Positions 1-18,000 of a DNA stretch of 64,000 nt are shown piece by piece. Numbering within the stretch: position 1 is the first letter of the stretch; the number at the start of each line of letters is the position of its first letter. The stretch comes from Albugo candida (lineage: Eukaryota): NCBI GenBank assembly GCA_040437565.1, contig JBDOQK010000048.1, positions 62,001-126,000 on the forward strand, read 5' to 3'. The notes under the pieces were generated by a model. The model was not told the DNA's origin. It ran no database searches and was given only the letters and a program-made list of their open reading frames with translations. A program made the translations under genes and the position numbers.

Positions 1-3000
1 AAAAAATCCTTTCATTATCGTTCCTCGAAATGTATCGTAGAAAATCTCGGCCTTCCCACTAACTCCATCAACCACTGCATCCTGGAGATATATTCTGTCT
101 CCGCTCCCGTCCAGGACCGAAAATGTGATGTTCCAAACGACTTTGGAAGTGGTAAATTTGCTCACTTTGATCGGGTACAAGCCCAAACCTTTAGAAATTG
201 CTTCATGCAGATCATCGGTATTTGCATCGATGCTAACTTTAGCCCATCTCGATGCATTTGTCGTCAATCCAAGAGTAATCTCCCCGGTTGTCTCGGCCGC
301 GGCTCCCGATATACGCATAACACTTTTCGATACTTCTGAAGTTGAACTGAGATTATCATCGACAATTCTGAGCATTTTCCGCTCACTTGCATCCAGATCA
401 AATGTGATATCCCAACAGAAACCATAATAATTTGGCACATACGACCTAGAGACATTGACATTTAAAGCCCCCTCTATTGATCCCAATATATCTCGAAGCT
501 CCAAGGCGCGAATCATAGAACTCAACACGGGCGTTACACTCAGTCCATACGCCAAGACAAAATGGCCAGATATGGGGCTCTGAGAGGATATTATTATTCG
601 TTGAACTTCCATGACCTTATCTTGTTGTGGAATGTGTATTGATACGACAGGTTGTGACAAATTACTCTGAAGCAGTTTTATTGACTGAATCTCACTTCGA
701 ATTGGTTTTTTCGCTCCATCTTGTAAAGTGTGCACATGAACTCTGGCCCCTTCGTCATTACTTATCAGAAGCTGATTATCTGACATCAACATATCGATGT
801 TTCCAGCCGTGGGTTGAAATGTCACTGTCCAAGAGTAACAAGAATGATCGTACGGATCGGATCGAGTTATGGCCATGACCGGAAGAAACTCGGACAGGAT
901 GCTGAACATAGAATTTCGGGTCCCATCCATACCCGGAGCATCATATGCGATATACCTTGACCAACGTATACCGGTCCCGACGCTATTTGTTGATCCTAGC
1001 GAAAAGTATCCACTCAAATCCGAGCCTCGTGATTTTAGATGTGTTGATATCACCTGTACTTCCGATCGTGCGATAAACGCCGCGATGACGATTTCGAATA
1101 TAGTTGGTCTCAGGGTACTAGAAGGAGTATAACAGCGAACTGAGGTGCTTGACTGTTGGTAGGCAGGCACCACAAAGTTTCGTGAGCGTCTGTGGCCAAA
1201 TTGGCAGTGTGTAATGCGTAGTCCTCTCTCAGTTGAGTGGTAGTCAACCACGGTCGCGGTGCCACCGTTGAAGGGACCCGATTGAGGATTTATTTTCCGT
1301 AATTCAATCTCCGGGTAATAATTGAAACGAGTTGAATTTGGTATCGGAATAAAGTCTTTGTTATTGTTTGAGATTCTGAGGCTTGCCCACCCTTTTGCCC
1401 GATAAAGCTCCGCATTACTACAGGTGGAATTGCACCAATGTCCTAGAATTGAAGGGGCTTTACAAACGACCGAATTGCTTGATAGAAAAATCCCTTTTCC
1501 AACGCTAGTCGACGTATAATTCCTTGCAGGAGTATTGATTGACCACGAGCAGCTTAACATGGATGAATTGATAAAGTTGGTGCCTTGTATAGTTACTGAC
1601 GAGCCCCCATGACTCGATCCTGAATTTGGATAAATAAAACTCTTCAGAATGATTTCTTCGTAATAAGTGAAAATTGCTGTTCCAATAGATTCAAGACCAG
1701 CATCTGCTGAGTGCCCATCAAAGAACATTCGCAGTGCTACGTACACGGATCGTACCGCTGTAGATGGAGGACTTGTGCAACTCACAGCGGTGGCATTCAA
1801 AAAGAACGCATCGGAAATTGTTTGTCCAAAGACACACATAAGGCGCGACTCTGAAGTAAACCACTCCCCCCTGAGTATTATAGGAGTTCCGCCTCTTGTT
1901 GGACCGATGTTAGGTTGTACATCCCAAACGGTAGGATTACGTACATATTGATACGTGAGTCGGTTTTGCGCGACGTCTTGTCCATTATACAACACTTCTA
2001 CACCAACACAACCTGTTCGTAGACGAATTGAATCGATGCTGGATTTTGCATCAGTTGGGTCACCAACATGAAGTAAATACGCTTTTAGAAGAGGTTGCAT
2101 ACAATGACCCAATTTCAAAGGTAATGTGTCGAATGTTATATTCCAAACAATTTGAAATGAATTTTGCAGGTCTACGAGTTCAATGGATACATTCCTGACT
2201 CGGAAAGAGCCATTGACCAACTCTTCAATTGCTGCTGCGATCTCGTACCCTCTTGATGAGAGGTTTAAATTGTCGACTGAGCTGTCACCGTATGTGAGTT
2301 TTACTCTTCTACTTAGCGAGTGGGCATATCCTTCCTGTAAGCGAGACACTCGGGCTTCACGTCGACTAGATTCGATTGTAAAAAGATTTACTTTACCAAA
2401 ACCACTCGGGAATTCCACGGTCCAATTGCGGCCCGAATTTCTATCTGTAGAGCTATCATGTATTTTGATATCCCGACTAATTAGAATTGCTTTTATAGCT
2501 TCTTGCATATCAACGGCTGTAGAACTGGTTGATAAAGGTTTTGATACTTTTCCTCCGAATCCAAGTCTAATTGGAGAAATCGATGCACAAGGATATTTTG
2601 TTCTACGGACAACTCCTTTCCCCCGTGTATTAGATAGATGGTTGACTTCTATCTGAATCAATGGACGAGCCTTTGGTATGATTCGATCATCGAGAAACGT
2701 AATTTCCCAGCTGTAGCCGTCGTAATGATCATTGTGATCGCGTCTCACTTGAACGATCTCTCCAAGCGAGCGAAAGACTTGTTTCATTTCAATAATCGTA
2801 GCATTCGAGGAGACTATAGCTGTTCTTTTGTTATATGTTAGCAATAAATCATCCTTAGTCGATGTGAAGTCACTTTTCCGGAGAACGATCCATCCAGCTT
2901 CGACATCTTTGCGGTATATGGAGCGAAGATTTCTTGTACAGAACGTCAGTGGACGTAACAATCCACTCTCCGATACAAACGTGACAAGCCAGCCATAGCC

Positions 3001-6000
3001 ATCCCCAAATGGAAATGGAGACTGATCGAGTCGCATGCGAGATACCACAACTGAGCCATAGAATCCTGGACTCTCAAGCAAGTCCTTCATCATATCCGCG
3101 GTTGCGTTCCAAGGGATCGATCTGTACGTGAGTCCAGCATCCGCAGAAATGGAAATATTACCCTCAATAACGGAGCTTCCATTCGCATATATCATGTACA
3201 CTTGTCCCGGGTTCGAAGCATCGATTATTTTCGTATTGACGACGTAGTGCTTCGTTGCTTCATACGGTAATGACACTCTTGGATTATCTAACTCTTGCAC
3301 ACCAGTACTTGTGATTCGCCATACATATGACGATTCACTCTGGTTTCGACCAACGAATACATCGTTGACTGCTGGAAATGACGACAAACGATCGAAAATA
3401 TCTTTAACATCATTCCTAGTTGCTGTCACTATGGAAATGGGCTTCGACTTCATTTGAATGTATGCCTTGATGTTCAATTGACTATCTGCTGGATATGAAG
3501 CATTCAATGGGATCGCAAAAGGGCCCATCGGAAGAAAAAAATCGATTTGAAAGCTTAAATGTCCAATTCGAATAACATCCCCGCGTTCAACGATGCCTGT
3601 GATATTCTCTGTCGTATGAATGATCGGCCAATTTTCTTGAACTGTAACAAACCCTGGTAAGCCAACATTGGTTGGTCCATGAGATAATTGTACTACCGAT
3701 GAGGATGGATTGCAGTTAGACCCAATCCCGTCTTGCAGTGTTTCCTGTGTTGCGATCACAGCCCCGTTTGAGTTGGGTTCTATTAACTTCACGCTAAGAT
3801 CAGGAATATCGTCGGTATTAGCAAAAGTGATCAGCCATGAAAGACTTTGGAAAAAGTCCGAGTGCAAATTTGACACGGAGACGTGGTGCCCATGAACAGC
3901 CGATAACCCTCCAACCAATGACGCAAATTCGATTTCTGAAGCCCCGGTGTCTATTGATACTTCTTCTCCAGCCAATATGAGTGAGAACCTACCAGAAATT
4001 GGCAATAATGTTCCATTGGTGACCTCGCTTATGGTAATATTTGCATCATATTTAGTAGAAACGAGAGTTGTTTGAGCACCACCAGCGGACAGCTCTGGAG
4101 TATTCGCATAAATTTTAGGGTGAGTGAATGTTACTAGCCAGATGAACGATGTTTTGCCTGACATACCATTTGTACGACTAACTGTTGCTTCCCCAACAGA
4201 CGGGAGAGCATTGAGAGCCTCTGCAATAAGTTGTGCTGAACTGTCAAAAGGTAAAAGGGGAGTGGTCTCTTCTCCAGCAAACCTTAGAAAAAAGTGCCCT
4301 GATAGCACGCCACCAGAGTCGGCTTTCGTTTCAATTCTTTGTACCTCCATCCACGTCTGTGTTTGTAAATTTATAATTGATCCATAAGCATGACTCGAGC
4401 CCTCAATCTGACGTGTATCAAGCCAAACTACATCACCAGGATTATGCGATCTATATGTTACATCCCAGAATCTACCTCCAGAGAAATCACTCCCACCATA
4501 CTTGACTTCTATGTCTGTAATGAGGTTAAGACCATACAGCGCCAATCGTATAGCATCAGATGACGCAGTTATTGGGAGAGATTCTGTTACATGTTCTGAA
4601 ATTGCCATCCTGAAGCTACCCTTTAGAGGGACGATCTGTCCCTTTCTGACCTCAGCAACTCGAATCCATGGAAGAGGTCTATAAGGCTCTGATACGATGT
4701 TGATGATTTCAAGTTGTTTCAAATCGCCGAAATTGAACGGAAATGTAATCTGCCAAGTCTTCATACTTTTTGCAATCCTTGAAATCAACGTAACATTCAA
4801 ATCATCAAGCGTTGTCAGATTACTCATTGCGTTTGCAACATCTCTTGCATTGGCATCGAACGAGATCGGATTCGTTATAGCTCCCTCGTAACCAATCTGG
4901 AAGCTTCCAATGAGTCCGGGACTGCACAAAAGAGTGACGTTTTGTATTTCTGATACCAGTCCTTTTCGACGTTCGAATGAGTCAGCTACAAACATAAGTG
5001 TATGACCTGTGAGACTATCTTCAGGGACTTTTTGTAATCTAAGGATCGGTATATCACCAGCGACATAGAAAGTAATGTCCCATCGATGACTGCTGTAGAC
5101 AGCTGAACTTGAAACATTGATCGACACCGACAAGTCAGCAAGACAGCCTGTGGACGATGTCTGCGAGTGCTCAAAATAGTAAGATCTGAGAAGATTATCG
5201 AGCACCTGCTTTAAATTCGCGAGTGATTCGATGGGAAGAAAAGCTATACTTTCTTTTCCAGAAAGAGCGAGAATGTGAGGAGTCGAATCCTGCAACGGGA
5301 CCTGAAATTCGAGGATTTGCATTTCCCACACCGACCTTCTCTGCGTGATCGCGATCCGTTGTATATTCGGTGTATGGCGTAACGTTAGATTAATGCGTTG
5401 GATTTCAGATCGCTTACTAATCGCATAGTGTTGAGATTCAATTTGAGGGTGGACGCCAAGCATATCACTGCTTGAGGCCGTAAAGGGGTGCGAAAAAGAA
5501 TAACCAACAGGAAAATGTATGAACCACTCTCGATCACCGTTCAGACCTGGACCTTTCATTGTGCAGTAGGCACTTCCTAGCCATGATTGGAGTGTCGAGC
5601 AATTCGCATTGACACTGATTGCTCTAGATTCTTTAGTCAGTGGATGTCGAAGAATCATGTTTCCTTTCAAGGGCATTGGTGTTCCACGCATGCTAACAAG
5701 AATAGAAAGACCGGGTGATAAATTGCTTTGTAAGTCTCCATATTTTCCAGAAAGATTGAAGGACTTATCATTCGATTGAATCAATGGGATATCTCGATAA
5801 GCTTCAGGGAAATTTATCAAGAAAGTTCTAAGGCTGTCTGGAGACTCCACTTCTCGAACTAGGGCTGATCTGGATTGATCTAAGTTCTGCAACAAAGATT
5901 GTAAATCTCGAGCGGTAGCATTATATGGCAATTCGGTTGTTGTCTCACCACCGATTGAGAGAGTGAAAAATCCATATGGCAAATGAGAAGTTGCATTTCT

Positions 6001-9000
6001 AGTACGAATTACATTGCTCCCAACGTTCGTTAGCATACTGGTGTCTACTTGCAACATTTTTTGCATGCCAGGATTCCGAACAAATATGATTTCCCAGAAG
6101 TAGGTTGTTTCTATTTCATGATTCGATAACACGGTATTCTCGCGGTAAAAGCGCACAAATGGCCGCTTTACACCACTGAGACCTAATAGTGCAGAGCCCA
6201 TACCGTCCGCATCAGCATGTACATTAACCATCACGCTGTTTGAAGAGCCTATAATCGCAAATGACCCATCCAAGATACTATCTAGATGAGCTCCGTGTAT
6301 GGAAAGAACCTGTATCTCGGCCACCGTACCCCGTCGAATCCTATCAACCATACACCATGATTGACTTCCTTGTGAAGCATCTGTGTTAATACTCAACAGC
6401 GGTACGGGTCCGACAGTAGATGTGAATGTAACAAGCCAATAATGGGAGTTATTGTCAAAATCCGAAGCCGGAGACACTTCAAATCTTANNNNNNNNNNNN
6501 NNNNNNNNNNNNNNNNNNNNNNNNNNNNNNNNNNNNNNNNNNNNNNNNNNNNNNNNNNNNNNNNNNNNNNNNNNNNNNNNNNNNNNNNTTGACTTCCTTG
6601 TGAAGCATCTGTGTTAATACTCAACAGCGGTACGGGTCCGACAGTAGATGTGAATGTAACAAGCCAATAATGGGAGTTATTGTCAAAATCCGAAGCCGGA
6701 GACACTTCAAATCTTAGCGCCCATGAAGCAGCTTCAGAGAGAGCTTGGGAGAGCTTTATATGATCTACATTGTAAGGGAGCCATTCTGTGAGGCCATTGG
6801 AAACCACTATCTGGAATCTTCCCCCAACTTCATTACCGACAGATACGGATATGCGCTGTACTTCCGGTAGTTCAGCTGTGTAGACGAACTCGACAAGCTG
6901 GATTGCGGGTTCATATCCTCCAGATAGAGTTCTGATGTGGATCATTTCGTGGTCGTAAGAATTATAATTGGTGAATTTCATTTGTAATATTTGACTTGAA
7001 GCTGACCAAATTTTAGTAGAAATGGTTTGTACTTCTGGTTGATAAGGCACATAAGGTAGGTATATGCTTTGAATCTCATTTTGCTCTTTAGGAACTTCAA
7101 AGCGGAATTGTTGAATCTCGGTGCTCATGTCATCTTGCGAGTATGACGGAGGTGTTTGACACTCAAGCTCATTCTCGTTCCTCATAATCCCAGCACTTTT
7201 TTCCCCATCGAACAAGCATACCACATTGGAATCAGCTTTAAAACCAGTGCCTACAATTTTCACACTGTTTCCCCCGTATATACTTCCATAAGCTGGGTGT
7301 ATTGTGGACAAAGTCGGAGTGTTCAGGACGTAGAAGAATAGTTTATCACTCGTGTAGTCGATTCCCCCATTCAGTGAAATATCGAGAAGGTATGTGAGAG
7401 GCTGTAGTTTGGGCGAGATACAGAAAACTGAACAATTAGCCCACGATCCCTGAACAGTAGATCCGTCGAAATTGTTAGCTTTGAAGCGGCATGTGACGTC
7501 CTCTATCAGGAGCGAATCCAGGCAAACCTCTAATCTAACTTGAATCCTTGTACCTCCTTCGATAGAACCTGAATTAGGATATAAATTTAGCAACCTTGTC
7601 CACCTGACGTAAGTAAATGACTGATGCGTCAGATCCTCTTGAAATCCAGCCACGCCATCTATCCCCTCTACAAGAAATGGTACGATAGACTTACTACCGG
7701 TGATTGTAGGAGGGAAAGACAAACGTGACCGAGGTGGTGAGTTGCAACTGTATTCGGTCGGCGACATATTTCCAGCTTTAACATATATCGAACCAAATTT
7801 ACAAAAGAGGCGAAGGTCCCGCCGTGAGTTTTTGCTGGGAGGACGAAGGGTTCTAAAGGTTACATTGGTACCTCCACTGAACGGCCCACTCATAGGATGA
7901 TAGGATTGTATCATTATCACGTCTGTGTACGCGAAACGAAGTGTTGTTGAGGGGTTAGTATAGTCGATATCATTACCAGCGACTGCAACCAAAATGTTTT
8001 TCGCATGTACCTCCGCTGGGAAGACACATTCAATCTGACGGCTTGATCGAAAAGTAGCTGGAGCACTATGTAATTCCCCGATCATACATCTCAAGCCGTC
8101 ATCTTCTGAAAAAAATGTACCATGAATCGCCACTGTTACTTCTTCATTTAAATGCCAACTAGTGGGGCTAATTCGGGATAGAAGATAAGGTCGGTGCAGC
8201 AACAAAGTCTTCGTTGTCGTGCTATATTCCACACCGTTGTTTGAGGCTTGGACTTTCAGCGCAAGAAATTTCCGGGCTTTTAAATTCTTTAATTGATCCA
8301 ACTCACATTTTATACGAGTAGGAGAAATAAAAACTGCGGGTACTTGGAGCCCATTCAGTCGACATGATAACCATTGTGTGTTCAAAAAGTCCTCGCCGGT
8401 GATAATGAGACTATTCAAATGACCAAAATAAGCCTTCTGTGGGGTGATTGAGGAAACCGTTGGATTACGGACATAGTAGTAATCCATAGTTTGTGTAGCG
8501 TAGCTTGGTCGATGGCTCGAGGTGAAGATATCAGTGATACCAAAATAAAAACTTTGCTGAACGAGGCCGAAATGTATACTTGACAGAGACTCTCCTGGAG
8601 GACTGCTGCATTCTAGCGTACTTTCATTTACGTATTTTAATGGAGCAAGGCGTCGTCCAAATGCGCATGATAGAAACCTAATCTGTTGAAGGTCAATTCG
8701 ATCAAACTCACTGCACGAAAAACGAACTCGCGTTTTCCCTTCAATCTGGCCAAATGAAGGGAAAATCTTGGTGATATGAAAGGTTGACAAAATCTGAATT
8801 TTGTTTTCGCTATCCACAAAAGTGTCGTTGTCCAACGAAATCGACACAGAATGCTCACCATCTGCAAGCCTATGCACAGGAACAGAGCACGTGATGAGAG
8901 CTGGCGAAATCCATTTTGCACGTGCGACGGTATAGCTTTCTCCAAACTTGCAAACCGATAAATTTGACGCGTACGGTGAAAAATTTCTTCCACGTATTTC

Positions 9001-12000
9001 TAGGTGCGGAGGTTTTGCATCATTCCTTTGAGCGCGAAAGAGCCTCAATGGCATAATAGAATCAACACTGGGACAGACATCATACGAAAAAACGAGAGTA
9101 TTGCTCATGTCGGCGCCGGCGTTGATGCTCAAAGATACGGAGATAAGTCTTTTTCGAGCAGACAATTTAAANNNNNNNNNNNNNNNNNNNNNNNNNNNNN
9201 NNNNNNNNNNNNNNNNNNNNNNNNNNNNNNNNNNNNNNNNNNNNNNNNNNNNNNNNNNNNNNNNNNNNNNNATTTTGTTTTCGCTATCCACAAAAGTGTC
9301 GTTGTCCAACGAAATCGACACAGAATGCTCACCATCTGCAAGCCTATGCACAGGAACAGAGCACGTGATGAGAGCTGGCGAAATCCATTTTGCACGTGCG
9401 ACGGTATAGCTTTCTCCAAACTTGCAAACCGATAAATTTGACGCGTACGGTGAAAAATTTCTTCCACGTATTTCTAGGTGCGGAGGTTTTGCATCATTCC
9501 TTTGAGCGCGAAAGAGCCTCAATGGCATAATAGAATCAACACTGGGACAGACATCATACGAAAAAACGAGAGTATTGCTCATGTCGGCGCCGGCGTTGAT
9601 GCTCAAAGATACGGAGATAAGTCTTTTTCGAGCAGACAATTTAAAGTCATCTTTTGGGATCGTTACACGAACTTGAGTTGGAGTCACAACGTCGGGGATT
9701 ACTACGACAACAACTTCATTTGCTTTCTCATCCATGCTTCGAAAGTAGATCAGCACGTTATCATGTAATGTACCCAGGTTCAATCCCTTCAAATGCAGCT
9801 TCGTTTTTTGCACATTATTTAGATGGTTCGGATGCAAAGACAATAACATTGGATGATTTACATATGTGAATGTAACATTGCGTTTGGGTCTGACAAGCAA
9901 TTTCTTTTCCATATTGGTCGAGTATATTACAATTGCGAAGGGATGTGTTGAGGGTCTCGTAACACCATCAGTTTGGCACGGCTGAGATCGTTTTATTGGA
10001 AGCTCGGTATCGCCAACCTGACAATATATATGCAAGGTGCTAAGCTGCGCAATCAATCTGTCGTTAAAGTTCTCTGGTAAGATGTGAATTTGAGTACCAC
10101 CTTGCATTGAACCGATCGTTGGACTGATATAGAAATCTTCCGTAAACAGCAAATTGTCTAAGAAACCTGTATCACCGATCATTTGAGCATAGTCTTGACC
10201 ATTGTTGCCTATAGCAATAGTTGACTCGAACAAGATCCAGGGATTCGAAACTTCGCTGTACAAACAGGACTCATTGATATAAGTTGAATTGATTGGCATA
10301 GATTGAATTGTTTGATTCCAATCTGGTGAGCTTCTTGAGTCATGATCCATAGCAGCTATAACAGAACTTGATTCTGTGAAGTCGGTTCCAAGTATCCAAA
10401 GTGCGAAAGAATTAGAACCGGTTTTGGTCAGGAGTGGCATCGCATGAATATGCTGAATGCTAGGTTGTGTATAGCCCATAAAAAGAATAGCATTTGACAG
10501 AATACTCCCATGTGAACGTATCTGAATTGAGAGCTCTTTTTCGCCGGCGTTGGTTTGGCCAAATTTGGGATTCCTTGGTACAAGGCAGTGCAAAATGCTT
10601 CCTGTTTTCGATTTGTAAGCTTTTACTTTGAAAGCATTGCCAAAAATGCATTCGATAGTTTCGTCATTTTGATCATATGAAGCATCTAGATACAGTTTTG
10701 TTCCTCCGTAAGTAGGCCCACTTCTCGGTTTGATTGACCGTAGTCTTAGATCCGATATTATTCTTATTGTCTTAAGAACTCGTGTTGGATCAACTTCTAG
10801 GCTCAAACCAATAAATTCGATACCACGTGGAAGCGGAGGAGACAGGCATAAACGATGCGTTTCATTTACTCGTATAATTGACTCTTGCCATCTGAATGTC
10901 TTGATTGAGTCCGAGGTAAACACACACTCACTCGCAAATGATATTGTCTGAGACGCGCAGTTATTGCACGTCAGATATAGCGGAATGCGGCCGGATCTTG
11001 TAGCCACAAGGGGACTGACTGTAAATTCTTGCATGATATCGTCTAGCCTAAGTCTTAACTTTTGAGTTGTGAAGTCAACGCCATTCAGTGTGATCTCGAC
11101 ATGCACAAATCCACTATACCACAGCTCTGAAGTCATTTGGCCTGATTCTTTCGCGCCTAGTTCGCAGCGAATTGTGCTGGGGGTCAAAAGTATCGCAGTA
11201 GCTCGCACCTGTGTTCCGATTTTACAAAGTAGTGCTGATGTATTCTGGAATCCACTGCCTGTAGCCAAAATTACCACGGGATATGGTTCATCTTGTGAGA
11301 AGCTTGAGATTACTTGTATCATGCTGAGTTCTGGATCTTCATAGTATGTGTATAAATCAGCTGATGATAATAATTCACTCCCGTTTTTCGAGCTCCTTAC
11401 AGAAACTCGAACATTGGCTTGATTTGAAGTTGCATTAGGTAGACTGGGTAATGGTGGGGTGCTGCAGCTTATAACAGATTCATTTACGCGCTTACCTAAG
11501 TGCAAAGCCCCACCAATGTCGCAAAAGAAAAAGTCTCGTTCGTGCAGAAAGACGTCGAGATGTATGTTGATATTTGTACCCCCACGAACACTTCCAAATG
11601 AAGGTGTGATAGCTTTGAGCTTCGGTAAAATTCCTCGTTCGGATGTTAGATGAACATCAAATGTGCTGAAGAGCTTTGTTTGTAAATAAAGCTCCACTCG
11701 GCGGAGTATGACTCGATTGCAAACCAGTTTGCACTTTGAGAAATCATGCGGTAGTTGAAAAGTTACGTTTCGCCATCCAATTGTAGATAGCAAAGATTCC
11801 CTATATCTGGTGAGCCGAGTAATACCCTTTAGATCTTGATACGTCATTGTGGTTCTACATGCCCAAGATCGTGATGAAGAAAAATCTATTCCGCTTATAA
11901 TGAGATCGTCATAATCCGGTGAATGACTAACCAGTTTGAATTGGAGAGGAAGCGAGCCTGGAATGATCTGCAGTTTATCAGATGCTACAGCTATCTCTTG

Positions 12001-15000
12001 ACCATGATGGTGGATTGAGACACTGATGGCTTCCGTAGGCATCAAGGGTATGACGCATTCAATAAGCGTACTTGCTATCACATTTGTCTCAACTGATCTA
12101 TAATTTCCAAACTGACAAGCGTGGTCTTCAATGAAGTTTGAGCCATATAGACGAAGTATCTGATTTGGTTGCTGAGAAACTAGTTGCGGAGTAAAATAAA
12201 AAATCGTAGGACTAATTGTATAGCGAAAGCTCATCGTGTTTTCACTATATCGCTCTTTATTCAGGAAGACTGAAGCATTGATCACTGTTTCTGTATGAAC
12301 GGAAGACGGTTTGGGGGGTGTATCACAAGTTAGAATGAGATATGGCTTGGATTTAACATGAAGAACTTTCGCACTTCTCAATATGATCCATGTAGCGTCA
12401 TTGTGACTTGTGAACGCACAGTCGAAACTGAAGGTTTCATTGATTACAAATGCCGCATGCTCCAAAGCGAGACGAAGAAGGGTACCACCTTGACTGTCTC
12501 CACTATCAGGCTCGAGTGATAATAACATTTTGCTGGAGAAGAATGAGAACTTTTTGGGTAAACTTGCACTACTCTCAATCGTAATTTGATTGATCTTGAG
12601 TAAGAATGGTACTTGAGTTGCAGGAATTCCTACAGGGCTTTTGCATATGACTTCAGAGTCGGACACAAGCGTGCCTTCCACGGGACTTGAACCAAACCAG
12701 CAATTAATATTCAAACACTTTTCTTCTTTCGGGATGTATAGTCTTGTGAGCTCTAGAAGAATATCCGTTCCGCCAAGAGCTGATCCAGCAAGTTTCGAGG
12801 TTTTCTTAATGTGTACATCAGGAACAAATTCGAACCTGACACTGTCACTTATCGCGTAAAAATTCGAATCCAAGACCCTGAACTGAGCAACCTGTGCTTC
12901 GTGCTTGGGTGTTATGCACCGAAGACGATTATTTGATTCAGTTTGAGCTTCAATACGGCTATTCTCACCGAACAAACACCAGTACTTTGTCTCTTCTTGT
13001 ATCTTCGTTCCAGATAAAAAAAAATCATCCTGACTTTCAAGCCAAACCTTAACTGCGCTTCCTCCCGAGGCAAAAGCTGAACTAGGACAAATCGATACTT
13101 TCATCAAAGAGGCGGTGCTTCTCAATTTTGCATTATTGCTAAAGTGGAATACCAGGTCATCTCTAAAGTCGTACACAACCAATTGCAATTCTAGAACTCC
13201 ATATTGTGGAAGATGAGGGACGTTGCAAACCGCTGTATGGTCAGTAATAACCAACCCAAGACTTTCTGCGATAATCAGCGCCGAAGTCGATTTTGTTGAC
13301 ATGAATCGACACATTAAAGATGCTAGAGGAGCTGTAAAACCAGCCCCAGTTACGTTGATATGAATGCCGGTGGAATCGGTACTGATGTGGGAAGGTGATA
13401 TACTGTGGACTATCATATCTCGATTCATTTGAAGAGCTTTGCTAACACGCAGAAAGTTCTGACCATCGCAAGCAACAGAAATCGAGTATCGTTTTCTTTG
13501 CTGTAAGTCAATAGTCTTTGCCCAGGCGCACTCAATTTTTGTGTCTGATGATATATTAGCCCCGAGTAATTGTGTATCTCCAAGTCTGCACTTTGCTTCA
13601 CGAAATGAATACTTGTAGAAACCACTTCCATGTAATTCAAGACCGAAGGTATCTCCAAACCGCGNNNNNNNNNNNNNNNNNNNNNNNNNNNNNNNNNNNN
13701 NNNNNNNNNNNNNNNNNNNNNNNNNNNNNNNNNNNNNNNNNNNNNNNNNNNNNNNNNNNNNNNNTTTCTTTGCTGTAAGTCAATAGTCTTTGCCCAGGCG
13801 CACTCAATTTTTGTGTCTGATGATATATTAGCCCCGAGTAATTGTGTATCTCCAAGTCTGCACTTTGCTTCACGAAATGAATACTTGTAGAAACCACTTC
13901 CATGTAATTCAAGACCGAAGGTATCTCCAAACCGCGAATTTCTCACTCTAATATCTCGGATAATTTCATCGGGTGTGTAACGAAACACTATTGAAGTTTT
14001 GCAGTGATGAACCATCTGCCCCTGGCAAACTCCATCTATTGAATACTCAAATGTCAGATTTACTATTCCCGGGACCTTCCAAGACGGTGAAATGCACTGA
14101 ATACTCGATTTGCTTGTATCGATAGTTGCAGCCAATGTGACTTGATCATAGCGACAACAGATACCTATCACACTGCGTTTCTGAATTGGCAAATTCTGAA
14201 AGTGTACAATGGTAACTGTTCCTCCTCTGATCGGTCCGACCAGATTCATGACCTCGTTGATCAATAGAGGCTCAGCCATAAACATATTAACAGGATTACT
14301 GTGAACTTTTATGAGCTTTTCAGCCTCCACTATGAAAAATCTGACAGAATATTTCCCAGGTTTCAAATTCGGACTTTTGAAATAATATCGGTCATGAGAA
14401 ATGCCTCCTTCCTGGTATATTTCTAGTGGTGAGCGGGCTTGCTCTTCCATATGTTCATCATATAGGAAGCAAGAGACACTGGTATTGTGAAGTAAAGATA
14501 CGCCTTCGACAGATATCTTTGCCTCGATTCTTTTGGGAGCAAGTCCGTTGGGCGATGTCGCGCAAAGTTGCCAGGGCAATATTTTTGGAGAAATTGTTAC
14601 ATTATGAATCATTTTGATATAAATGAAGAAGACGTCACCAACACCTGATACGATCTGCTTGCCGAAAATACCCTCATAATCAAATTGTACTGTTAGGTCA
14701 AGACGCATTTGTATCATATCGACCTCAAAATTCTTCACTGATGGTGCCACACAGACCAGTAGAGTAGATGAGACGTATGTTGCTATTGAAGAGACCACAA
14801 TTCCATCTTTCGTACTAAATTGACAGGAAGTGATCATATCGGTCCTGGCTACGAACCGTTGCCCGTACACACGGATGATCTCACCACCAGTAGATGACCC
14901 TATTCTGGGATTGACTGCGTATAACTCAGGAATCCAATGATAATTTATAGCGGCGTGAAGAGAGCTGAAGAAATCTTTCCCATTGATGCAAACAAAAACT

Positions 15001-18000
15001 GACAGCTTCGTAGGAAAGCTTGCTTTTGGTACTCCACATGATACTAGTGTTGTACTCAAAAAAGTACCTGGAGAAATTGCTTTCTCCCCTATTCGGCACA
15101 TGATTCTTCCGGTATCGCGAAATCCTCTTCCGAAAACGTACGTCTGACTTATTTCAGAAGCCTTGTTTGGTTCATTCCGGATGAAGAGAAGATTCGGCTT
15201 CAGCTCATGAATGAGAATTTTGGGAACGATGTGGATTGAATGATCGAAATTATAAAAATCCACATTATTCACTGATACCTCGACTGTGATATATTGGGAA
15301 TCGGTCGAAAGTTTACGGAAAACTAGATCGCATTGTATCAGTGATGTATTCATGTACAAAGCCTTGACCAAAAGAGTTTTGTCAAAGCGGCAAAATGATG
15401 AAGGTGAAAAGTTTTCTCCTCTGAGCCTCACATTCGTCAAAACATTCTCATGTATCGTGGTCGGAAAAATTGATCTAATCCGAGGTTCTTTGATATAATA
15501 GAACAAAGAGAGCAGTGGCATTGCAAAATCTTCAAGAGGACAGTGTAATGTAACACTGGCAGATCCACAGTACGCAGAAGCTGGGGTCAAGCACTTGAGA
15601 ACTTCTCTAGACTCCGAAGTCGGAGTCGACGAAGCTTCAACATAAGAGACGGCCATAATGTCGTTCTTCGTCATATAAAAGTGACATTCCCAATACGGGC
15701 ACGCTGCTGGAAAGGATTTTCTAAATGGGATCTCAATTGTTGTCCCACCCTTTGCTGAACCTAGTTTGGGTGAAAATGACGATGCGTTATAATTTTCTTG
15801 CTTAAGATTCGAGCTCCGTTGATTCCGCGCACTAATATTGTATCTTATATCAGTGAAATCGACCCCATTAGCAGAAAAATATACGTGCAGACTCTCCAAG
15901 CCATTCTGTAGACGATTTCTTGGAGGTATATCGCATCGAACGTGGGTATCTGACATCCATATTGCTTCTGCTCTTATCTTCAAATTACCAAACAGACAGC
16001 ACATTGTGGGTAGTCTCGGGAAAGATGTTCCCACTATGTGCAATACTTTTCTCGTTTGTGGGCTGTAACCTTTACCAAGTAAAGACCGATCCGTAGTAAC
16101 AACACTCGAATGGATTGAGAAATCATGAAAATACCATAAAACTGGTCCAGTGTGGAAGTGCTGTCCATTGAATGTAATTTGAGGTCGAGTTCGCATTGCT
16201 GTATTCATTTTGGGGCTCACACAGCGAGCTTTTATATCCGCATGCCCACCTTGCGTGGTTAGCAATTCCCCTCTAACCAGGATGCTGCCAATACGGCAGA
16301 ATATCAGATCTGGACTGATCTTGAGTTGTAGACCATACATAGTGAACGTCAAAGTACCACCACTTGTAACACTTGCGCTTCGCGGATGTACATCCACGTA
16401 CTTTGGTCTAGGATACAACTGCAAGTTCTGCAGTCCCTCAGCAATAGTAATCCCATATCCTGAATACTGTACTGAAAGACTGAGGATTGCTTCATTTAGT
16501 TTCAAAGGAAAACGCTGCATATGAACGCTCGAAATGATGCATTCTACTTGATCATCTTGAATGTAGGAAGCCGCAACGGTCGTTATTCCATCCAGAACAC
16601 AAACGCTGTAGCTAGAATTTAAAAAATGCTGACCCGACAGCTTTAATATAATTGTTTCACCATACGGAGCAAGTGTAGGGCTGATTCGAACAAGTTTTGG
16701 AGTCTCTTTGTAAATCAATTGCCAAGGGTATAGATGAAATGCATCGCCAAGTCTCATTCGAACGCGCTCATATCTTCTCGTCGTATTAATGGAATTCCAT
16801 GGTACCACGCACTGAACAACATTGTTACTGTGCACTATGGCAGGGATCGAGTAGCGTCCGGAATCATAGATACATCTAAGAAGCGGTGTGACCATGAAGT
16901 TCTCACCTGAGATTGCGACACTGACTGAGCCAAATCGATATTCAAATTCTGAAAGTACTCGTTGCTCGCCAACATTATACGTGGTCCTTATGTCACGTGC
17001 ATGATTATGTGGATAGTCCGGGCTTAATGTCTCTTGGCTGAATGAAGAAGAATGCATACTGTTCGACATATCCACAAATACATGGTACACAAGACTTTGG
17101 TATGACTGGCTTTTTGTGATGATCGCGTTGCCATGAGAACATCGGGAAATTGCACGTTGCAACACTACCGAATCCTTGATTTCGTGAAGAGCACTAGTGA
17201 TACACTTCAGAAACTCCTCTTTTCTACTTTTATATCCATGTGTAGATTCAAGTTTGCACATACTACTTCCATTCGCAAAGGACCTCCGTGATTGAGGTGA
17301 ATAGCCTGATCGTATCTGCAACGAGGTGTGCGAAGACCCATGAATATGCTTATCTGTAACTTGTTCCAACTGAGAAGGCTTGGCTTGAACTAACACAGAG
17401 CTAAGCATGCTTGTAGACAAGTTCCTACCGCCATGTGAAATTGACATGGAGCTATCTGAGATTTCATCCGAATAGAAATTCCATTGAGATTTTCGATCGT
17501 GACGGCTTGGAATNNNNNNNNNNNNNNNNNNNNNNNNNNNNNNNNNNNNNNNNNNNNNNNNNNNNNNNNNNNNNNNNNNNNNNNNNNNNNNNNNNNNNNN
17601 NNNNNNNNNNNNNCTTGATTTCGTGAAGAGCACTAGTGATACACTTCAGAAACTCCTCTTTTCTACTTTTATATCCATGTGTAGATTCAAGTTTGCACAT
17701 ACTACTTCCATTCGCAAAGGACCTCCGTGATTGAGGTGAATAGCCTGATCGTATCTGCAACGAGGTGTGCGAAGACCCATGAATATGCTTATCTGTAACT
17801 TGTTCCAACTGAGAAGGCTTGGCTTGAACTAACACAGAGCTAAGCATGCTTGTAGACAAGTTCCTACCGCCATGTGAAATTGACATGGAGCTATCTGAGA
17901 TTTCATCCGAATAGAAATTCCATTGAGATTTTCGATCGTGACGGCTTGGAATTGAATCTTCAAAAGAGCGCCACACCAATACATTTGACTGTATTCGGGA

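What the first reader, a model, noticed from the sequence alone, without database searches (positions are those of the whole stretch)
2010..7145. Bracket-matched, nested repeat architecture: about 1,600 residues inserted inside one split IPT domain, implying a branched out-and-back stalk
Seen in sequence (minus-strand translation): an IPT domain starts normally (...GETVKIVGTGF...VVCLFDG...ELECQTPP, ending near 7145), but its closing strands (CVGVEVLYNGQDVAQNRLTYQY) appear only near 2010. Directly after CQTPP come seven short strand motifs (EIQQFRF, EIQSIYL, EVQTIST, QILQMKF, EMIHIRT, AIQLVEF, EVQRISV) spaced 14, 14, 14, 15, 14 and 14 residues. Only the last is followed by its normal body (G.F.L...T..L...A...AL...W.VTF). 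A second run of three (EIQRINL, NIQRIAI, EMQILEF) lies at about 5405-5305. Later bodies lack a leading strand (near 5990, 5670, 4620, 3990, 3700-3320, 2850, 2570, 2300). By eye there are 8 orphan strands and 8 orphan bodies (9 if QVYMIYA near 3200 is not a leading strand), and the order works as a last-in-first-out stack. Established: 14 residues of extended beta strand span roughly one beta-sandwich domain length. Inference: the outgoing chain donates one strand to each domain and the returning chain completes them, forming a rigid side branch with a sub-branch off the IPT backbone, i.e. a tree-like single-chain surface protein. I do not know of this being described for oomycete proteins, but I cannot search the literature.
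Basis: partly seen in the sequence, partly recalled or inferred. Interest (0 to 1): 0.92.

Follow-up and report, generated by a model that had tools for sequence, protein, structure and literature searches.

The report
Nested strand-ladder stalk in giant protein
A giant surface-type protein of an oomycete-like organism carries a 1,700-residue insert inside one IPT domain in which a run of single beta-strands laid down on the way out appears to be matched, last-in-first-out, by strand-less domains on the way back, a way of building a branched double-pass stalk from one chain that I could not find described.

Summary
One open minus-strand frame carries an IPT domain whose first 60 of 84 profile positions end at 7147 and whose closing strands lie at 2010-1942. 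Between them are 14 copies of a ~100-residue alpha/beta unit. Six are complete, eight lack the first strand, and eight spare 'EVQ-type' strands lie in two ladders (6 + 2) at 13-15-residue spacing.

In the window's own AlphaFold model of the sub-branch, one solved 90-residue phage domain superposes on ladder strand T2 plus a body 240 residues downstream. In a Pythium homologue, an AlphaFold model re-forms the split host Fn3 domain. ESMFold2 docks three ladder strands onto three strand-less bodies in last-in-first-out order (score 0.77, best control 0.00). Across 83 homologues, spare strands track strand-less bodies (r 0.80).

The main six-strand ladder of the window was not modelled. The unit is not a beta-sandwich. 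It is homologous to the C-terminal-extension domain of mycobacteriophage Bxb1, whose gp23 carries a shallower nest. I rate it a new variant of nested discontinuous domains, of high interest.

The parts
7147..7320 (-). Host IPT/TIG domain, N-terminal part (aa 2037-2094), ends ...ELECQTPP
   Evidence: Pfam TIG profile positions 1-60 of 84, E 7.5e-12
7099..7119 (-). Ladder strand S1, EIQQFRF (aa 2104-2110). Predicted partner by stack order: body aa 3697-3806
   Evidence: Matrix score 10.1. Pairing inferred by stack order, not modelled
7057..7077 (-). Ladder strand S2, EIQSIYL (aa 2118-2124). Predicted partner: body aa 3610-3696
   Evidence: Score 14.7. Pairing inferred
7015..7035 (-). Ladder strand S3, EVQTIST (aa 2132-2138). 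Predicted partner: body aa 3514-3609
   Evidence: Score 16.2. Pairing inferred
6973..6993 (-). Ladder strand S4, QILQMKF (aa 2146-2152), degenerate. Predicted partner: insert-bearing body aa 3236-3408
   Evidence: Score only 1.1. Accepted on 14/15-residue spacing and on the 7-strand ladder of orthologue P0015
6928..6948 (-). Ladder strand S5, EMIHIRT (aa 2161-2167). Predicted partner: body aa 2581-2672
   Evidence: Score 6.4. Pairing inferred
6886..6906 (-). Ladder strand S6, AIQLVEF (aa 2175-2181). Predicted partner: body aa 2479-2580
   Evidence: Score 6.9. Pairing inferred
6358..6870 (-). Complete unit C1 (S7 EVQRISV plus body, aa 2187-2357), the hairpin tip. It contains the assembly artefact 6361-6588 (100 N plus a 128-nt exact duplicate)
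   Evidence: HMM positions 1-94. Duplication shown
5995..6324 (-). Complete unit C2 (aa 2369-2478)
   Evidence: HMM positions 1-100, score 100.8
5689..5994 (-). Strand-less body (aa 2479-2580)
   Evidence: HMM match starts at position 13-16
5413..5688 (-). Divergent strand-less body (aa 2581-2672)
   Evidence: No HMM hit at domain E 0.01. GNMILRH...REWFIHF motifs read by eye. The orthologue has an equivalent unit
5386..5406 (-). Sub-ladder strand T1, EIQRINL (aa 2675-2681). Partner: body aa 3141-3235
   Evidence: Score 16.3. Small single domains align over model range 1-8..565-573 at Z 4.2-6.5
5347..5367 (-). Sub-ladder strand T2, NIQRIAI (aa 2688-2694). Partner: body aa 2927-3024
   Evidence: Score 12.6. 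9d9w_Aa aligns at Z 11.8, 86 aa, 1.9 A on model range 19..356
4963..5331 (-). Complete unit C3 (T3 EMQILEF plus body, aa 2700-2822), tip of the sub-branch
   Evidence: HMM positions 1-100. VIA hits on model range 31..157
4651..4962 (-). Complete unit C4 (aa 2823-2926)
   Evidence: Bxb1 gp23 9d93_Ma aligns at Z 14.1, 104 aa, 2.2 A on model range 157..265
4357..4650 (-). Strand-less body (aa 2927-3024), completed by T2 in the model
   Evidence: HMM match from position 15. VIA range 19..356
4009..4356 (-). Complete unit C5 (aa 3025-3140)
   Evidence: HMM positions 1-100. phmmer E 0.0017 to Bxb1 gp23. 9d9w_Aa aligns at Z 10.1 on model range 358..472
3724..4008 (-). Strand-less body (aa 3141-3235), completed by T1 in the model (weaker support)
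   Evidence: HMM match from position 15. VIA ranges 5..568 and similar
3205..3723 (-). Strand-less body with a ~70-residue insert after its first strand (aa 3236-3408)
   Evidence: HMM positions 15-73 on aa 3318-3374. The same insert type recurs in P0014
2890..3204 (-). Unit C6 with a degenerate own strand QVYMIYA (aa 3409-3513)
   Evidence: HMM match from position 11. Orthologues have EVRLLYV and EIWMIYV
2602..2889 (-). Strand-less body (aa 3514-3609)
   Evidence: HMM match from position 24
2341..2601 (-). Strand-less body (aa 3610-3696)
   Evidence: HMM match from position 20-23
2011..2340 (-). Strand-less body (aa 3697-3806)
   Evidence: HMM match from position 12-20
1942..2010 (-). Host IPT domain, closing strands CVGVEVLYNGQDVAQNRLTYQYV (aa 3807-3829). 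The next IPT starts directly after
   Evidence: By eye it matches the closing part of the neighbouring IPT (TYLLDISLNGGIDYTSDKLFFYV). The 36-aa piece alone gives no Pfam hit. The next IPT is at profile positions 1-66
1..1131 (-). Start of the next nest: IPT N-part, complete unit (E at aa 4123), spare strand EIQSIKL (aa 4246), complete unit (aa 4274), strand-less body. It is cut by the window edge
   Evidence: Orthologue P0002 closes the equivalent nest with 3 spare strands and 3 bodies, then IPT closing strands

Best explanation
The 1,712 residues between the two parts of one IPT domain (1,636 once the assembly duplicate is removed) form a single-chain, double-pass stalk built by intramolecular strand complementation. 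The repeat unit is a ~100-residue alpha/beta domain. It is homologous to the C-terminal-extension (CTE) domain of mycobacteriophage Bxb1.

The unit's first strand (E-V/I-Q-x-I) lies between the 'WxVTF' strand and the last strand of the sheet. A complete unit starts and ends at the same pole, so it can only be a tip or a leaf. A body without the first strand enters at one pole and leaves at the other. It leaves a slot for a strand that runs the opposite way.

The outgoing chain lays down six such strands (S1-S6), one per ~14 residues. It turns at two complete units and comes back through strand-less bodies that take up S6, S5, ... S1 in reverse order. This returns the chain to the point where the IPT domain closes. 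Between bodies 5 and 4 a second, self-closed nest (T1, T2, three complete units, two bodies) forms a sub-branch.

Shown by prediction: the T2 pairing in the window, and the full last-in-first-out pairing plus host-domain closure in a homologue.

Inferred: the S1-S6 pairings, the pole geometry, stiffness, and an extracellular structural or adhesive role. That role rests on the IPT and Fn3 context and on a signal-peptide-like N-terminus in homologue P0005.
For: Anatomy: there are 8 spare strands, 8 strand-less bodies and 6 complete units, and their order is a well-formed bracket word. The orthologues keep it. P0015 has the same 7-strand ladder and 3-strand sub-ladder at 29% identity. P0002 is colinear over aa 2377-3830 at 32% identity and closes with IPT strands.

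Window model (9-sequence alignment, mean pLDDT 66, pTM 0.35): 9d9w_Aa, a single ~90-residue domain, aligns 86 residues at 1.9 A, Z 11.8, over model range 19..356, which is T2 through the end of body aa 2927-3024. Small single domains align over ranges starting at 1-8 and ending at 565-573, which is T1 plus the last body, at Z 4.2-6.5.

Homologue P0005 aa 880-1470 (15-sequence alignment, mean pLDDT 88.5, pTM 0.60, ladder strands pLDDT 90-94): single Fn3 domains align 90 residues at 1.9 A, Z 12.3, over model range 1..575. The Bxb1 CTE 9d93_Ja aligns 86 residues at 2.1 A, Z 11.4, over 50..406, which is ladder strand 2 plus body 2.

ESMFold2, three ladder strands against three bodies, no alignment used: ipSAE 0.77 (runs 0.78, 0.77, 0.77), best of 3 controls 0.00. 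The runs agree in at least 94% of contacts and the partner's pLDDT is at least 84. The mark was reached by 51 of 78 solved complexes and 2 of 108 mismatched pairs. On eukaryotes it was reached by 39 of 65 solved pairs with no like complex among older structures and by 2 of 126 unrelated pairs. The lowest-error contacts pair s1 (41-45) with 467-471 and 509 of body 3, and s2 (52-58) with 362-369 and 403 of body 2. Both run antiparallel.

Counts: in P0014, aa 234-4351 read by eye holds 21 spare strands and 21 strand-less bodies. The stack never goes negative, and the region starts and ends at NHL repeats. From the excess of bodies I had expected six further strands somewhere upstream (I guessed a missing N-terminal exon). 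They turned up in the undisplayed part of the same ladder. A second region, aa 5350-7144, gives 11 and 11.

Automated counts over 83 homologues with 8 or more units: correlation of spare strands with strand-less bodies 0.80, against 0.46 with complete units. The sums are 616 and 694. The difference is within 1 in 37 of 83 proteins, against a permutation mean of 15.6 and a maximum of 29 in 10,000.

Homology: the unit HMM hits Bxb1 gp23 at domain E 5e-17. It finds three N-halves followed by C-halves, which is a nest in a solved protein.
Against: No structure job was run on S1-S6 with their proposed bodies, or on the two IPT halves of this window. The window model has low overall confidence, and the ladder region has pLDDT 56-66.

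VIA gives only the first and last aligned residue, so 'strand plus distant body' is inferred from a compact domain fitting that range. In the second-look run, the best 9d9w_Aa alignment fell on a complete unit instead (358..472, Z 10.1).

Predictors have seen complete units, and possibly Bxb1, and may fill any vacant slot with any EVQ strand. The complex test is uncalibrated for peptides and for pieces of one chain.

The counts are noisy. In 19 of 83 homologues bodies exceed spare strands by 4 or more, and in 8 of 83 the reverse holds. P0013 and P0022 show runs of strand-less bodies with no ladder within 260 residues upstream. The prefix-order shuffle test was unconvincing for nearly every protein (lowest values 0.037 for P0014, 0.074 and 0.095).

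Every strand-less body is preceded by the previous unit's last strand at hairpin distance, so a local substitute was conceivable.
Confidence: 0.8

Rival explanations
1. The strands complement bodies between molecules rather than within one chain. The ladder of one molecule fills the slots of another, giving domain-swapped dimers or polymers as in donor-strand exchange of pili.
For: A vacant slot plus a spare strand is exactly what donor-strand exchange uses (recalled from the chaperone-usher pilus literature). The ESMFold2 pass was obtained with the strands as a separate chain, so it cannot tell in-chain from between-chain pairing. Equal counts per molecule also fit a symmetric swap.
Against: The monomer AlphaFold models close on themselves. 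The split Fn3 re-forms from residues 1..575, and T2 joins its body within one chain. The nests always sit inside a split host domain (IPT, Fn3, NHL) whose halves must meet. The bracket order is never negative in the hand-read nests.
Confidence: 0.08
2. The ladder motifs fold locally as a meander or sheet extension of the next complete unit. The strand-less bodies are self-sufficient and use the preceding unit's last strand in place of the missing one.
For: DSSP of the window model shows 10-12-residue strands separated by only 2-3 residues at T1-T3, at pLDDT 56-66. I first read this as a meander. Every strand-less body follows a 'xVxVxEVxxG' strand at the same distance at which EVQ precedes a complete body. 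Some homologues have runs of strand-less bodies with no ladder nearby.
Against: Single-domain superpositions span ladder strand plus distant body in both AlphaFold models. ESMFold2 contacts put the ladder strand between the WxVTF strand and the last strand of each body. A local fold gives no reason for spare strands to track strand-less bodies (r 0.80; within 1 in 37 of 83, against a permutation mean of 15.6), or for 21 and 21 and 11 and 11 in P0014.
Confidence: 0.07
3. The pattern is an artefact of assembly or a decaying pseudogene with shuffled repeat fragments.
For: Four 100-N gaps in this gene are flanked by exact duplications, so the assembly is imperfect. Several ladder strands and two bodies are degenerate.
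Against: The frame is open for 4,476 codons. It is open for 6,047 codons once the four gap-plus-duplicate artefacts are collapsed. The duplication touches only one complete unit. The same architecture is kept in orthologues at 29-34% identity and in many independent proteins.
Confidence: 0.02

Closest known systems
Mycobacteriophage Bxb1 CTE domains: gp14 capsid and gp19 tail-tube C-terminal extensions, and gp23 'tail tip cage/Dit' (PDB 9D93, 9D9W, 9D9X)
   Same: Same domain family. phmmer E 0.0017 from one window unit to gp23. The unit HMM built from eukaryotic proteins hits gp23 at domain E 5e-17 to 8e-15 and gp14 at 9e-11. VIA Z 14.1 (104 aa, 2.2 A) and Z 11.8 (86 aa, 1.9 A). By HMM coordinates gp23 is itself nested: three N-halves (positions 2-63) in a row, then C-halves (positions 56-99).
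   Different: In gp23 the break lies after the third strand, so half a domain goes out and half comes back, and the depth is 3. Here the outgoing part is one strand, the depth is 6 (13 in P0014), the nests branch, and the hosts are eukaryotic IPT, Fn3 and NHL domains. I could not read the Bxb1 structure paper (not held), so I do not know whether its authors describe the nesting. [quoted passage not shown]
Flagellin and the flagellar cap FliD (D0-D1-D2-D3 hairpin of discontinuous domains)
   Same: The chain runs out and back, so each proximal domain is made of an N-terminal and a C-terminal segment with the distal domains inserted (recalled). FliD D2-D3 structures are among the fold matches: 6iwy at Foldseek E 4.5e-4, 6kty_A at Z 6.5, and 5h5w_B at Z 5.7 over model range 5..568.
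   Different: Depth 3-4, different domains at each level, helical proximal domains, no repeated single-strand ladder, no branching. The Z scores are middling.
Nested domain insertions in integrin beta (PSI, hybrid, beta-I) and complement C3 (CUB split by TED)
   Same: A host domain is split by an inserted domain whose ends meet, and the insertion is repeated recursively (recalled, not tested here).
   Different: Depth 2-3, unrelated domains, no strand ladder.
Donor-strand complementation in chaperone-usher pili
   Same: An incomplete fold with a vacant strand slot is completed by a strand supplied from elsewhere (recalled). This is a likeness of working principle only.
   Different: There the strand comes from another subunit and completes an Ig-like fold. 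Here it is predicted to come from the same chain and to complete an alpha/beta fold.

Membership tests
IPT/TIG domain (Pfam PF01833) as split host | N-terminal strands match the family profile | tested here: met
   aa 2038-2096 match profile positions 1-60 of 84, E 7.5e-12, 45.5 bits against a cut-off of 20.9
IPT/TIG domain (Pfam PF01833) as split host | The closing strands (profile positions ~61-84) are present and pack on the N-terminal part | tested here: inconclusive
   The 36-aa piece alone has no Pfam hit. By eye it matches the closing strands of the neighbouring IPT. Contact of the halves was not modelled for this window. The analogous split Fn3 re-forms in the homologue model.
Bxb1 CTE-like domain | Sequence similarity to gp14, gp19 and gp23 CTE domains | tested here: met
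   phmmer E 0.0017. Unit HMM against gp23: domain E 5.4e-17, 7.1e-17 and 8.4e-15. Against gp14: 8.6e-11.
Bxb1 CTE-like domain | Same fold | tested here: met
   9d93_Ma Z 14.1, 104 aa, 2.2 A. 9d9w_Aa Z 11.8, 86 aa, 1.9 A. 9d9x_Ha Z 10.3. These compare predicted models with solved chains.
Nested discontinuous-domain (out-and-back) architecture | One compact domain is formed by two chain segments separated by inserted domains | tested here: met
   In models only. Fn3 over range 1..575 and CTE over 50..406 in the homologue. CTE over 19..356 in the window model.
Nested discontinuous-domain (out-and-back) architecture | Last-in-first-out order of pairing | tested here: met
   ESMFold2 contacts pair s1 with body 3 and s2 with body 2. 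The window model pairs T2 with the nearer body and T1 with the farther one. Not tested for S1-S6.
Donor-strand exchange polymers | The complementing strand comes from another subunit | not testable with these tools
   The monomer models close on themselves, but in-chain and between-chain pairing cannot be told apart by prediction.

The most novel reading that the evidence does not exclude
These proteins follow a bracket grammar. Each spare EVQ strand opens a level, each strand-less body closes one, and a complete unit is a leaf. A linear gene can thus encode a branched tree of double-pass stalks growing out of IPT, Fn3 or NHL host domains, to a depth of at least 13 levels and 21 pairs in one insert. 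The grammar appears in oomycetes, diatoms and at least one bacterium, and in a shallower form in a phage tail protein. The first strands made would have to stay unpaired until 1,700 to 4,100 further residues exist, so folding would run from tip to base. That would be an extreme case of long-range contact order and would call for a holding mechanism during secretion.
Probability: 0.55. Interest if true: 0.88.

Novelty: new variant of a known kind. Interest (0 to 1): 0.8.

Why it matters
Nested domain insertion is known at depths of two to four (flagellin, FliD, integrin beta, C3, and by sequence Bxb1 gp23). If the prediction holds, this is a regular, repeatable rule. A ladder of single strands at a 14-residue pitch, later zipped up by strand-less domains, builds long stalks in which every domain is clamped by two passes of the chain. 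The stalks branch, and their two ends meet, so the insert hangs off a host domain without breaking the host's own chain of domains.

That would give a new design principle for stiff single-chain fibres. It would also pose a hard test for protein-folding theory, because partners lie thousands of residues apart. It would explain a large, unannotated repeat family in giant stramenopile proteins. The unit has no Pfam model in the copy searched, and it links to a phage decoration domain of unknown function. It also shows that domain annotation by contiguous hits will systematically misread such proteins.

Tried and rejected
1. I first read the DSSP of the window model as a local meander of T1-T3. 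The VIA ranges contradicted that.
2. A beta-grasp guess for the unit was dropped. The fold matches are CTE, FliD D2/D3, RRM and ferredoxin-like.
3. I tried counting ladder strands from spacing alone. The histogram of WxVTF-to-GxF distances has a peak near 41 and a shoulder at 50-58, but no clean 14-residue steps.
4. Region-wise automated bracket parsing miscounts. It needs a recognisable complete unit right after a ladder, and it misses ladders followed by a divergent tip (P0029).
5. The shuffle test on the minimum prefix sum was unconvincing for nearly every protein (lowest values 0.037, 0.074 and 0.095).
6. The Pfam scan of the whole protein finds only TIG-type families, plus one sub-threshold hit (Qn_am_d_aIII, E 0.004, 17.9 bits against a cut-off of 22). 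The ESM Atlas gives only unnamed, mostly diatom clusters. PHROGs gives only weak hits: tail sheath E 0.0055 and major tail protein E 0.013.
8. Literature searches found nothing on this architecture. Four further searches concerned Bxb1. The Bxb1 structure paper is not held. Supplements were not consulted. The library lacks most subscription journals, so this is weak evidence of absence.

Full report
WHAT IS THERE

The finding lies in one very long open frame on the minus strand (window 1..13428, 4,476 codons, running off the window start). Pfam sees only IPT/TIG-type domains in it (TIG E 5.5e-100, 11 stretches), apart from one sub-threshold hit.

Two 100-N gaps fall inside the frame, and each is flanked by an exact direct duplication (128 nt at 6489-6588, 374 nt at 9172-9271). 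Collapsing these two and the two further gaps upstream gives a single 6,047-codon frame. So the ORFs at 13425-17447 and 17464-19167, which also carry TIG domains, belong to the same gene.

- The IPT domain that begins at aa 2037 matches the Pfam profile only over positions 1-60 of 84 and stops at ...ELECQTPP (aa 2094, window 7147).
- The strands that normally close an IPT domain (CVGVEVLYNGQDVAQNRLTYQYV) are at aa 3807-3829 (window 2010-1942). The next IPT follows directly.
- Straight after CQTPP come seven E-V/I-Q-x-I-type motifs, starting at aa 2104, 2118, 2132, 2146, 2161, 2175 and 2189.
- A position matrix taken from the unit profile scores six of them at 6.4-16.9 bits. Such scores occur at 0.44% of positions in the IPT-only parts of the protein.
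- The fourth motif (QILQMKF) scores 1.1 and rests on spacing and on the orthologue.
- A second run of three lies at aa 2675, 2688 and 2702.

A profile built from five complete units matches complete units from its first position. It matches the other units only from position 11-24, so those units lack the first strand. With the divergent body at aa 2581-2672 and the degenerate own strand of the unit at aa 3409-3513 (EVRLLYV and EIWMIYV in orthologues), the tally is 6 complete units, 8 spare strands and 8 strand-less bodies. Their order is: S1-S6, C, C, B, B, T1, T2, C, C, B, C, B, B, C, B, B, B. That is a well-formed bracket word.

WHAT THE UNIT IS

The unit has no Pfam family in the copy searched. 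The ESM Atlas gives only unnamed clusters, mostly from diatoms. A full HMMER search of 1.84 billion representatives with aa 2670-3830 found 430 proteins at E up to 0.001. Named ones come from Pythium insidiosum, the diatom Thalassiosira profunda, a record coded CCRYP in EukProt, and a Verrucomicrobiota MAG.

The only solved relative by sequence is 'tail tip cage, gp23' of mycobacteriophage Bxb1 (E 0.0017). A profile built only from the eukaryotic proteins hits gp23 at domain E 5e-17, and the capsid protein's C-terminal extension at 9e-11. Structurally, the best-modelled complete unit of the window superposes on gp23 at Z 14.1 (104 residues, 2.2 A). [quoted passage not shown] Weaker matches are FliD D2/D3, flagellin outer domains, phage sheath decorations, RRM and other ferredoxin-like folds.

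So the unit is an alpha/beta CTE-type domain, not a beta-sandwich. The phage extensions are dispensable and of unknown function according to the passages I read in PMC8704799. [quoted passage not shown]

DOES THE LADDER COMPLETE THE BODIES?

Three independent lines agree.

(a) The window's own sub-branch. I folded aa 2668-3240 with a 9-sequence alignment (mean pLDDT 66, pTM 0.35, ladder region 56-66). No coordinates are returned, and from the strand lengths I first took the ladder for a local meander.

The all-against-PDB structural alignment says otherwise. The ~90-residue capsid CTE domain 9d9w_Aa aligns 86 residues at 1.9 A, Z 11.8, over model range 19..356. That range runs from T2 to the end of the strand-less body aa 2927-3024, across two complete units. 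A compact domain can only fit that range if T2 sits in that body.

Small single domains also align over ranges that start at residues 1-8 and end at 565-573, which is T1 plus the last body. They include FliD D2-D3, ferredoxin-like designs and an RRM, with 72-102 aligned residues, but only at Z 4.2-6.5. The tool reports only first and last aligned residues. In the second-look run the same capsid chain was placed on a complete unit instead (Z 10.1).

(b) A homologue with a better alignment. P0005 (P. insidiosum, 3,575 aa) has two nests, each inside a split Fn3 domain. The second is three spare strands, one complete unit and three strand-less bodies, after which the Fn3 resumes. Twenty-four other proteins align to more than 420 of the 591 residues of this stretch at domain E 1e-68 or lower, and five more match more weakly. 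I used 13 typed segments and 2 whole proteins.

The model of aa 880-1470 has mean pLDDT 88.5, pTM 0.60, and pLDDT 90-94 on the ladder strands. Single Fn3 domains superpose on it with 90 residues at 1.9 A, Z 12.3, over range 1..575. So the two Fn3 parts, about 480 residues apart, form one domain. The Bxb1 CTE domain superposes with 86 residues at 2.1 A, Z 11.4, over range 50..406, which is ladder strand 2 plus body 2.

(c) A second predictor with controls. ESMFold2, without alignments, was given the three bodies (residues 186-518) and the three ladder strands (36-79) as separate chains.

- Score (ipSAE): 0.77 (runs 0.78, 0.77, 0.77). Best of 3 controls: 0.00.
- The runs agree in at least 94% of contacts, and the partner's pLDDT is at least 84.
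- The mark was reached by 51 of 78 solved complexes and 2 of 108 mismatched pairs.
- On eukaryotes it was reached by 39 of 65 solved pairs with no like complex among older structures, and by 2 of 126 unrelated pairs.
- Peptides and pieces of predicted chains are untested cases for this mark.

The lowest-error contacts pair strand 1 (41-45) with 467-471 and 509 of body 3. They pair strand 2 (52-58) with 362-369 and 403 of body 2. The residue numbers run in opposite directions. So the order is last-in-first-out, and the donated strand lies antiparallel to the WxVTF strand and next to the body's last strand.

GEOMETRY (INFERENCE)

Reading the secondary structure of the models with these orientations, a complete unit makes eight passes and so starts and ends at the same pole. 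A body without the first strand makes seven passes, entering at one pole and leaving at the other. It needs one strand running the other way.

That explains three things. Complete units occur at hairpin tips or as leaves. Strand-less bodies form the return path. The ladder pitch (13-15 residues, 7 in the strand) equals one domain length.

COUNTS IN OTHER PROTEINS

In P0014 (7,591 aa), read by eye, the stretch aa 234-4351 begins right after NHL repeats with 13 spare strands. It continues: C B B, s2 C B3, s3 C B4, s1 C B4, C B3, s1 C B, s1 C B4. It ends where NHL repeats resume. That is 21 strands and 21 bodies, and the stack never goes negative.

I had at first seen only 7 of the 13 strands. 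From the excess of bodies I expected six more somewhere upstream, and I guessed a missing N-terminal exon. They turned up instead in the part of the same ladder that I had not displayed. A second stretch (aa 5350-7144) gives 11 and 11. In P0002 the nest downstream of the window's orthologous one has 3 and 3 and ends with IPT closing strands.

For the automated count I excluded the query protein. I kept the 83 of 160 homologues with 8 or more detected units, and I called strands at a matrix score of 8 or more. The results:

| Measure | Value |
|---|---|
| Correlation, spare strands vs strand-less bodies | 0.80 |
| Correlation, spare strands vs complete units | 0.46 |
| Partial correlation given total units | 0.40 |
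| Sums (spare strands, strand-less bodies) | 616 and 694 |
| Proteins with difference within 1 | 37 of 83 (permutation mean 15.6, maximum 29 in 10,000) |
| Proteins with difference within 2 | 46 of 83 |

Total strands against total units gives r 0.91 over 84 proteins.

AGAINST

- Bodies exceed strands by 4 or more in 19 of 83 proteins. In 8 of 83 the reverse holds.
- Some of this comes from truncated gene models and from degenerate strands that the matrix misses.
- P0013 and P0022 have runs of strand-less bodies with no ladder within 260 residues upstream. I could not explain them.
- The order test by shuffling was weak.
- Predictors that know the complete unit may dock any EVQ strand into any empty slot. 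The structural results therefore show compatibility and a consistent register, not proof.

COMPARISON WITH WHAT IS KNOWN

Discontinuous, nested domains are well known: flagellin and FliD, integrin beta, and C3's CUB and TED (all recalled). By my HMM coordinates Bxb1 gp23 is a nest of this very domain. It has three N-halves (profile positions 2-63) in a row, followed by the C-halves (positions 56-99). I could not read the structure paper to see whether this is discussed.

What differs here:
- The break point lies after the first strand.
- The regular single-strand ladder follows from that break point.
- The depth is 6 here and 13 in P0014.
- The nests branch.
- Nests recur inside IPT, Fn3 and NHL hosts in giant eukaryotic proteins.

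Four literature searches aimed at such an architecture returned nothing relevant. The library misses most subscription journals, and I saw no supplements.

VERDICT

I put 0.8 on intramolecular, last-in-first-out strand complementation for this insert. I put 0.08 on the same complementation between molecules, 0.07 on a local fold with self-sufficient bodies, and 0.02 on artefact; the remainder is left unassigned.

The biological role is unknown. An extracellular structural or adhesive fibre is the reasonable guess from the IPT and Fn3 context and from the signal-peptide-like start of P0005.

Noticed in passing
window 6361-6716, 8798-9645, 13493-13936, 17175-17952: Each 100-N gap in this gene is flanked by an exact direct duplication (128, 374, 172 and 339 nt). 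These are unmerged contig overlaps. With each gap and one duplicate copy collapsed, the minus-strand frame is open for 6,047 codons. So the ORFs 1-13428, 13425-17447 and 17464-19167 are one gene. The gap at 25035-25134 has no such duplication.
   Followed up: yes
window 19672-26303, minus strand: Two further long ORFs lie on the same strand (1,521 and 681 codons). The first has four or more TIG stretches (E 1.2e-42). The second has no Pfam hit. They may be upstream exons of the same gene or a tandem paralogue. The CTE-type unit occurs only at window 73-6870.
   Followed up: partly
window 3205-3723 (aa 3236-3408): One strand-less body carries a ~70-residue insert right after its first own strand (…LPGFVTVQENWPIIHTTENITGIVERGDVIRIG…). 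The same insert type (LPGxVxVxxG…DLT…RGDxIxI) recurs in about a dozen or more units of homologue P0014. It is a further level of domain insertion, of unknown fold.
   Followed up: no
L001 9928-11985 (Bxb1 gene 23): By the eukaryote-derived unit profile, the phage protein gp23 has three N-terminal half-units in a row (aa 268-324, 328-387, 388-461) followed by C-terminal half-units (aa 513-557, 561-598). It is a nested arrangement of the same domain with a different break point.
   Followed up: partly
P0012 (2,967 aa, named by its source as a Verrucomicrobiota MAG protein): A bacterial protein carries 17 units and 17 EVQ-type strands. So the unit, and perhaps the strand bookkeeping, is not confined to stramenopiles and phages.
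   Followed up: no
P0014 aa 115-233 and 4352-4520; P0005 aa 30-76 with 800-870, and aa 880-916 with 1396-1450: Nests are hosted by different split domains. An NHL-repeat propeller hosts a 4,100-residue insert in P0014. Fn3 domains are split after strand C in P0005 and in 24 or more related proteins. In the window protein and its orthologue P0002 the IPT hosts are always split right after the Cys-x-x-Pro motif.
   Followed up: partly
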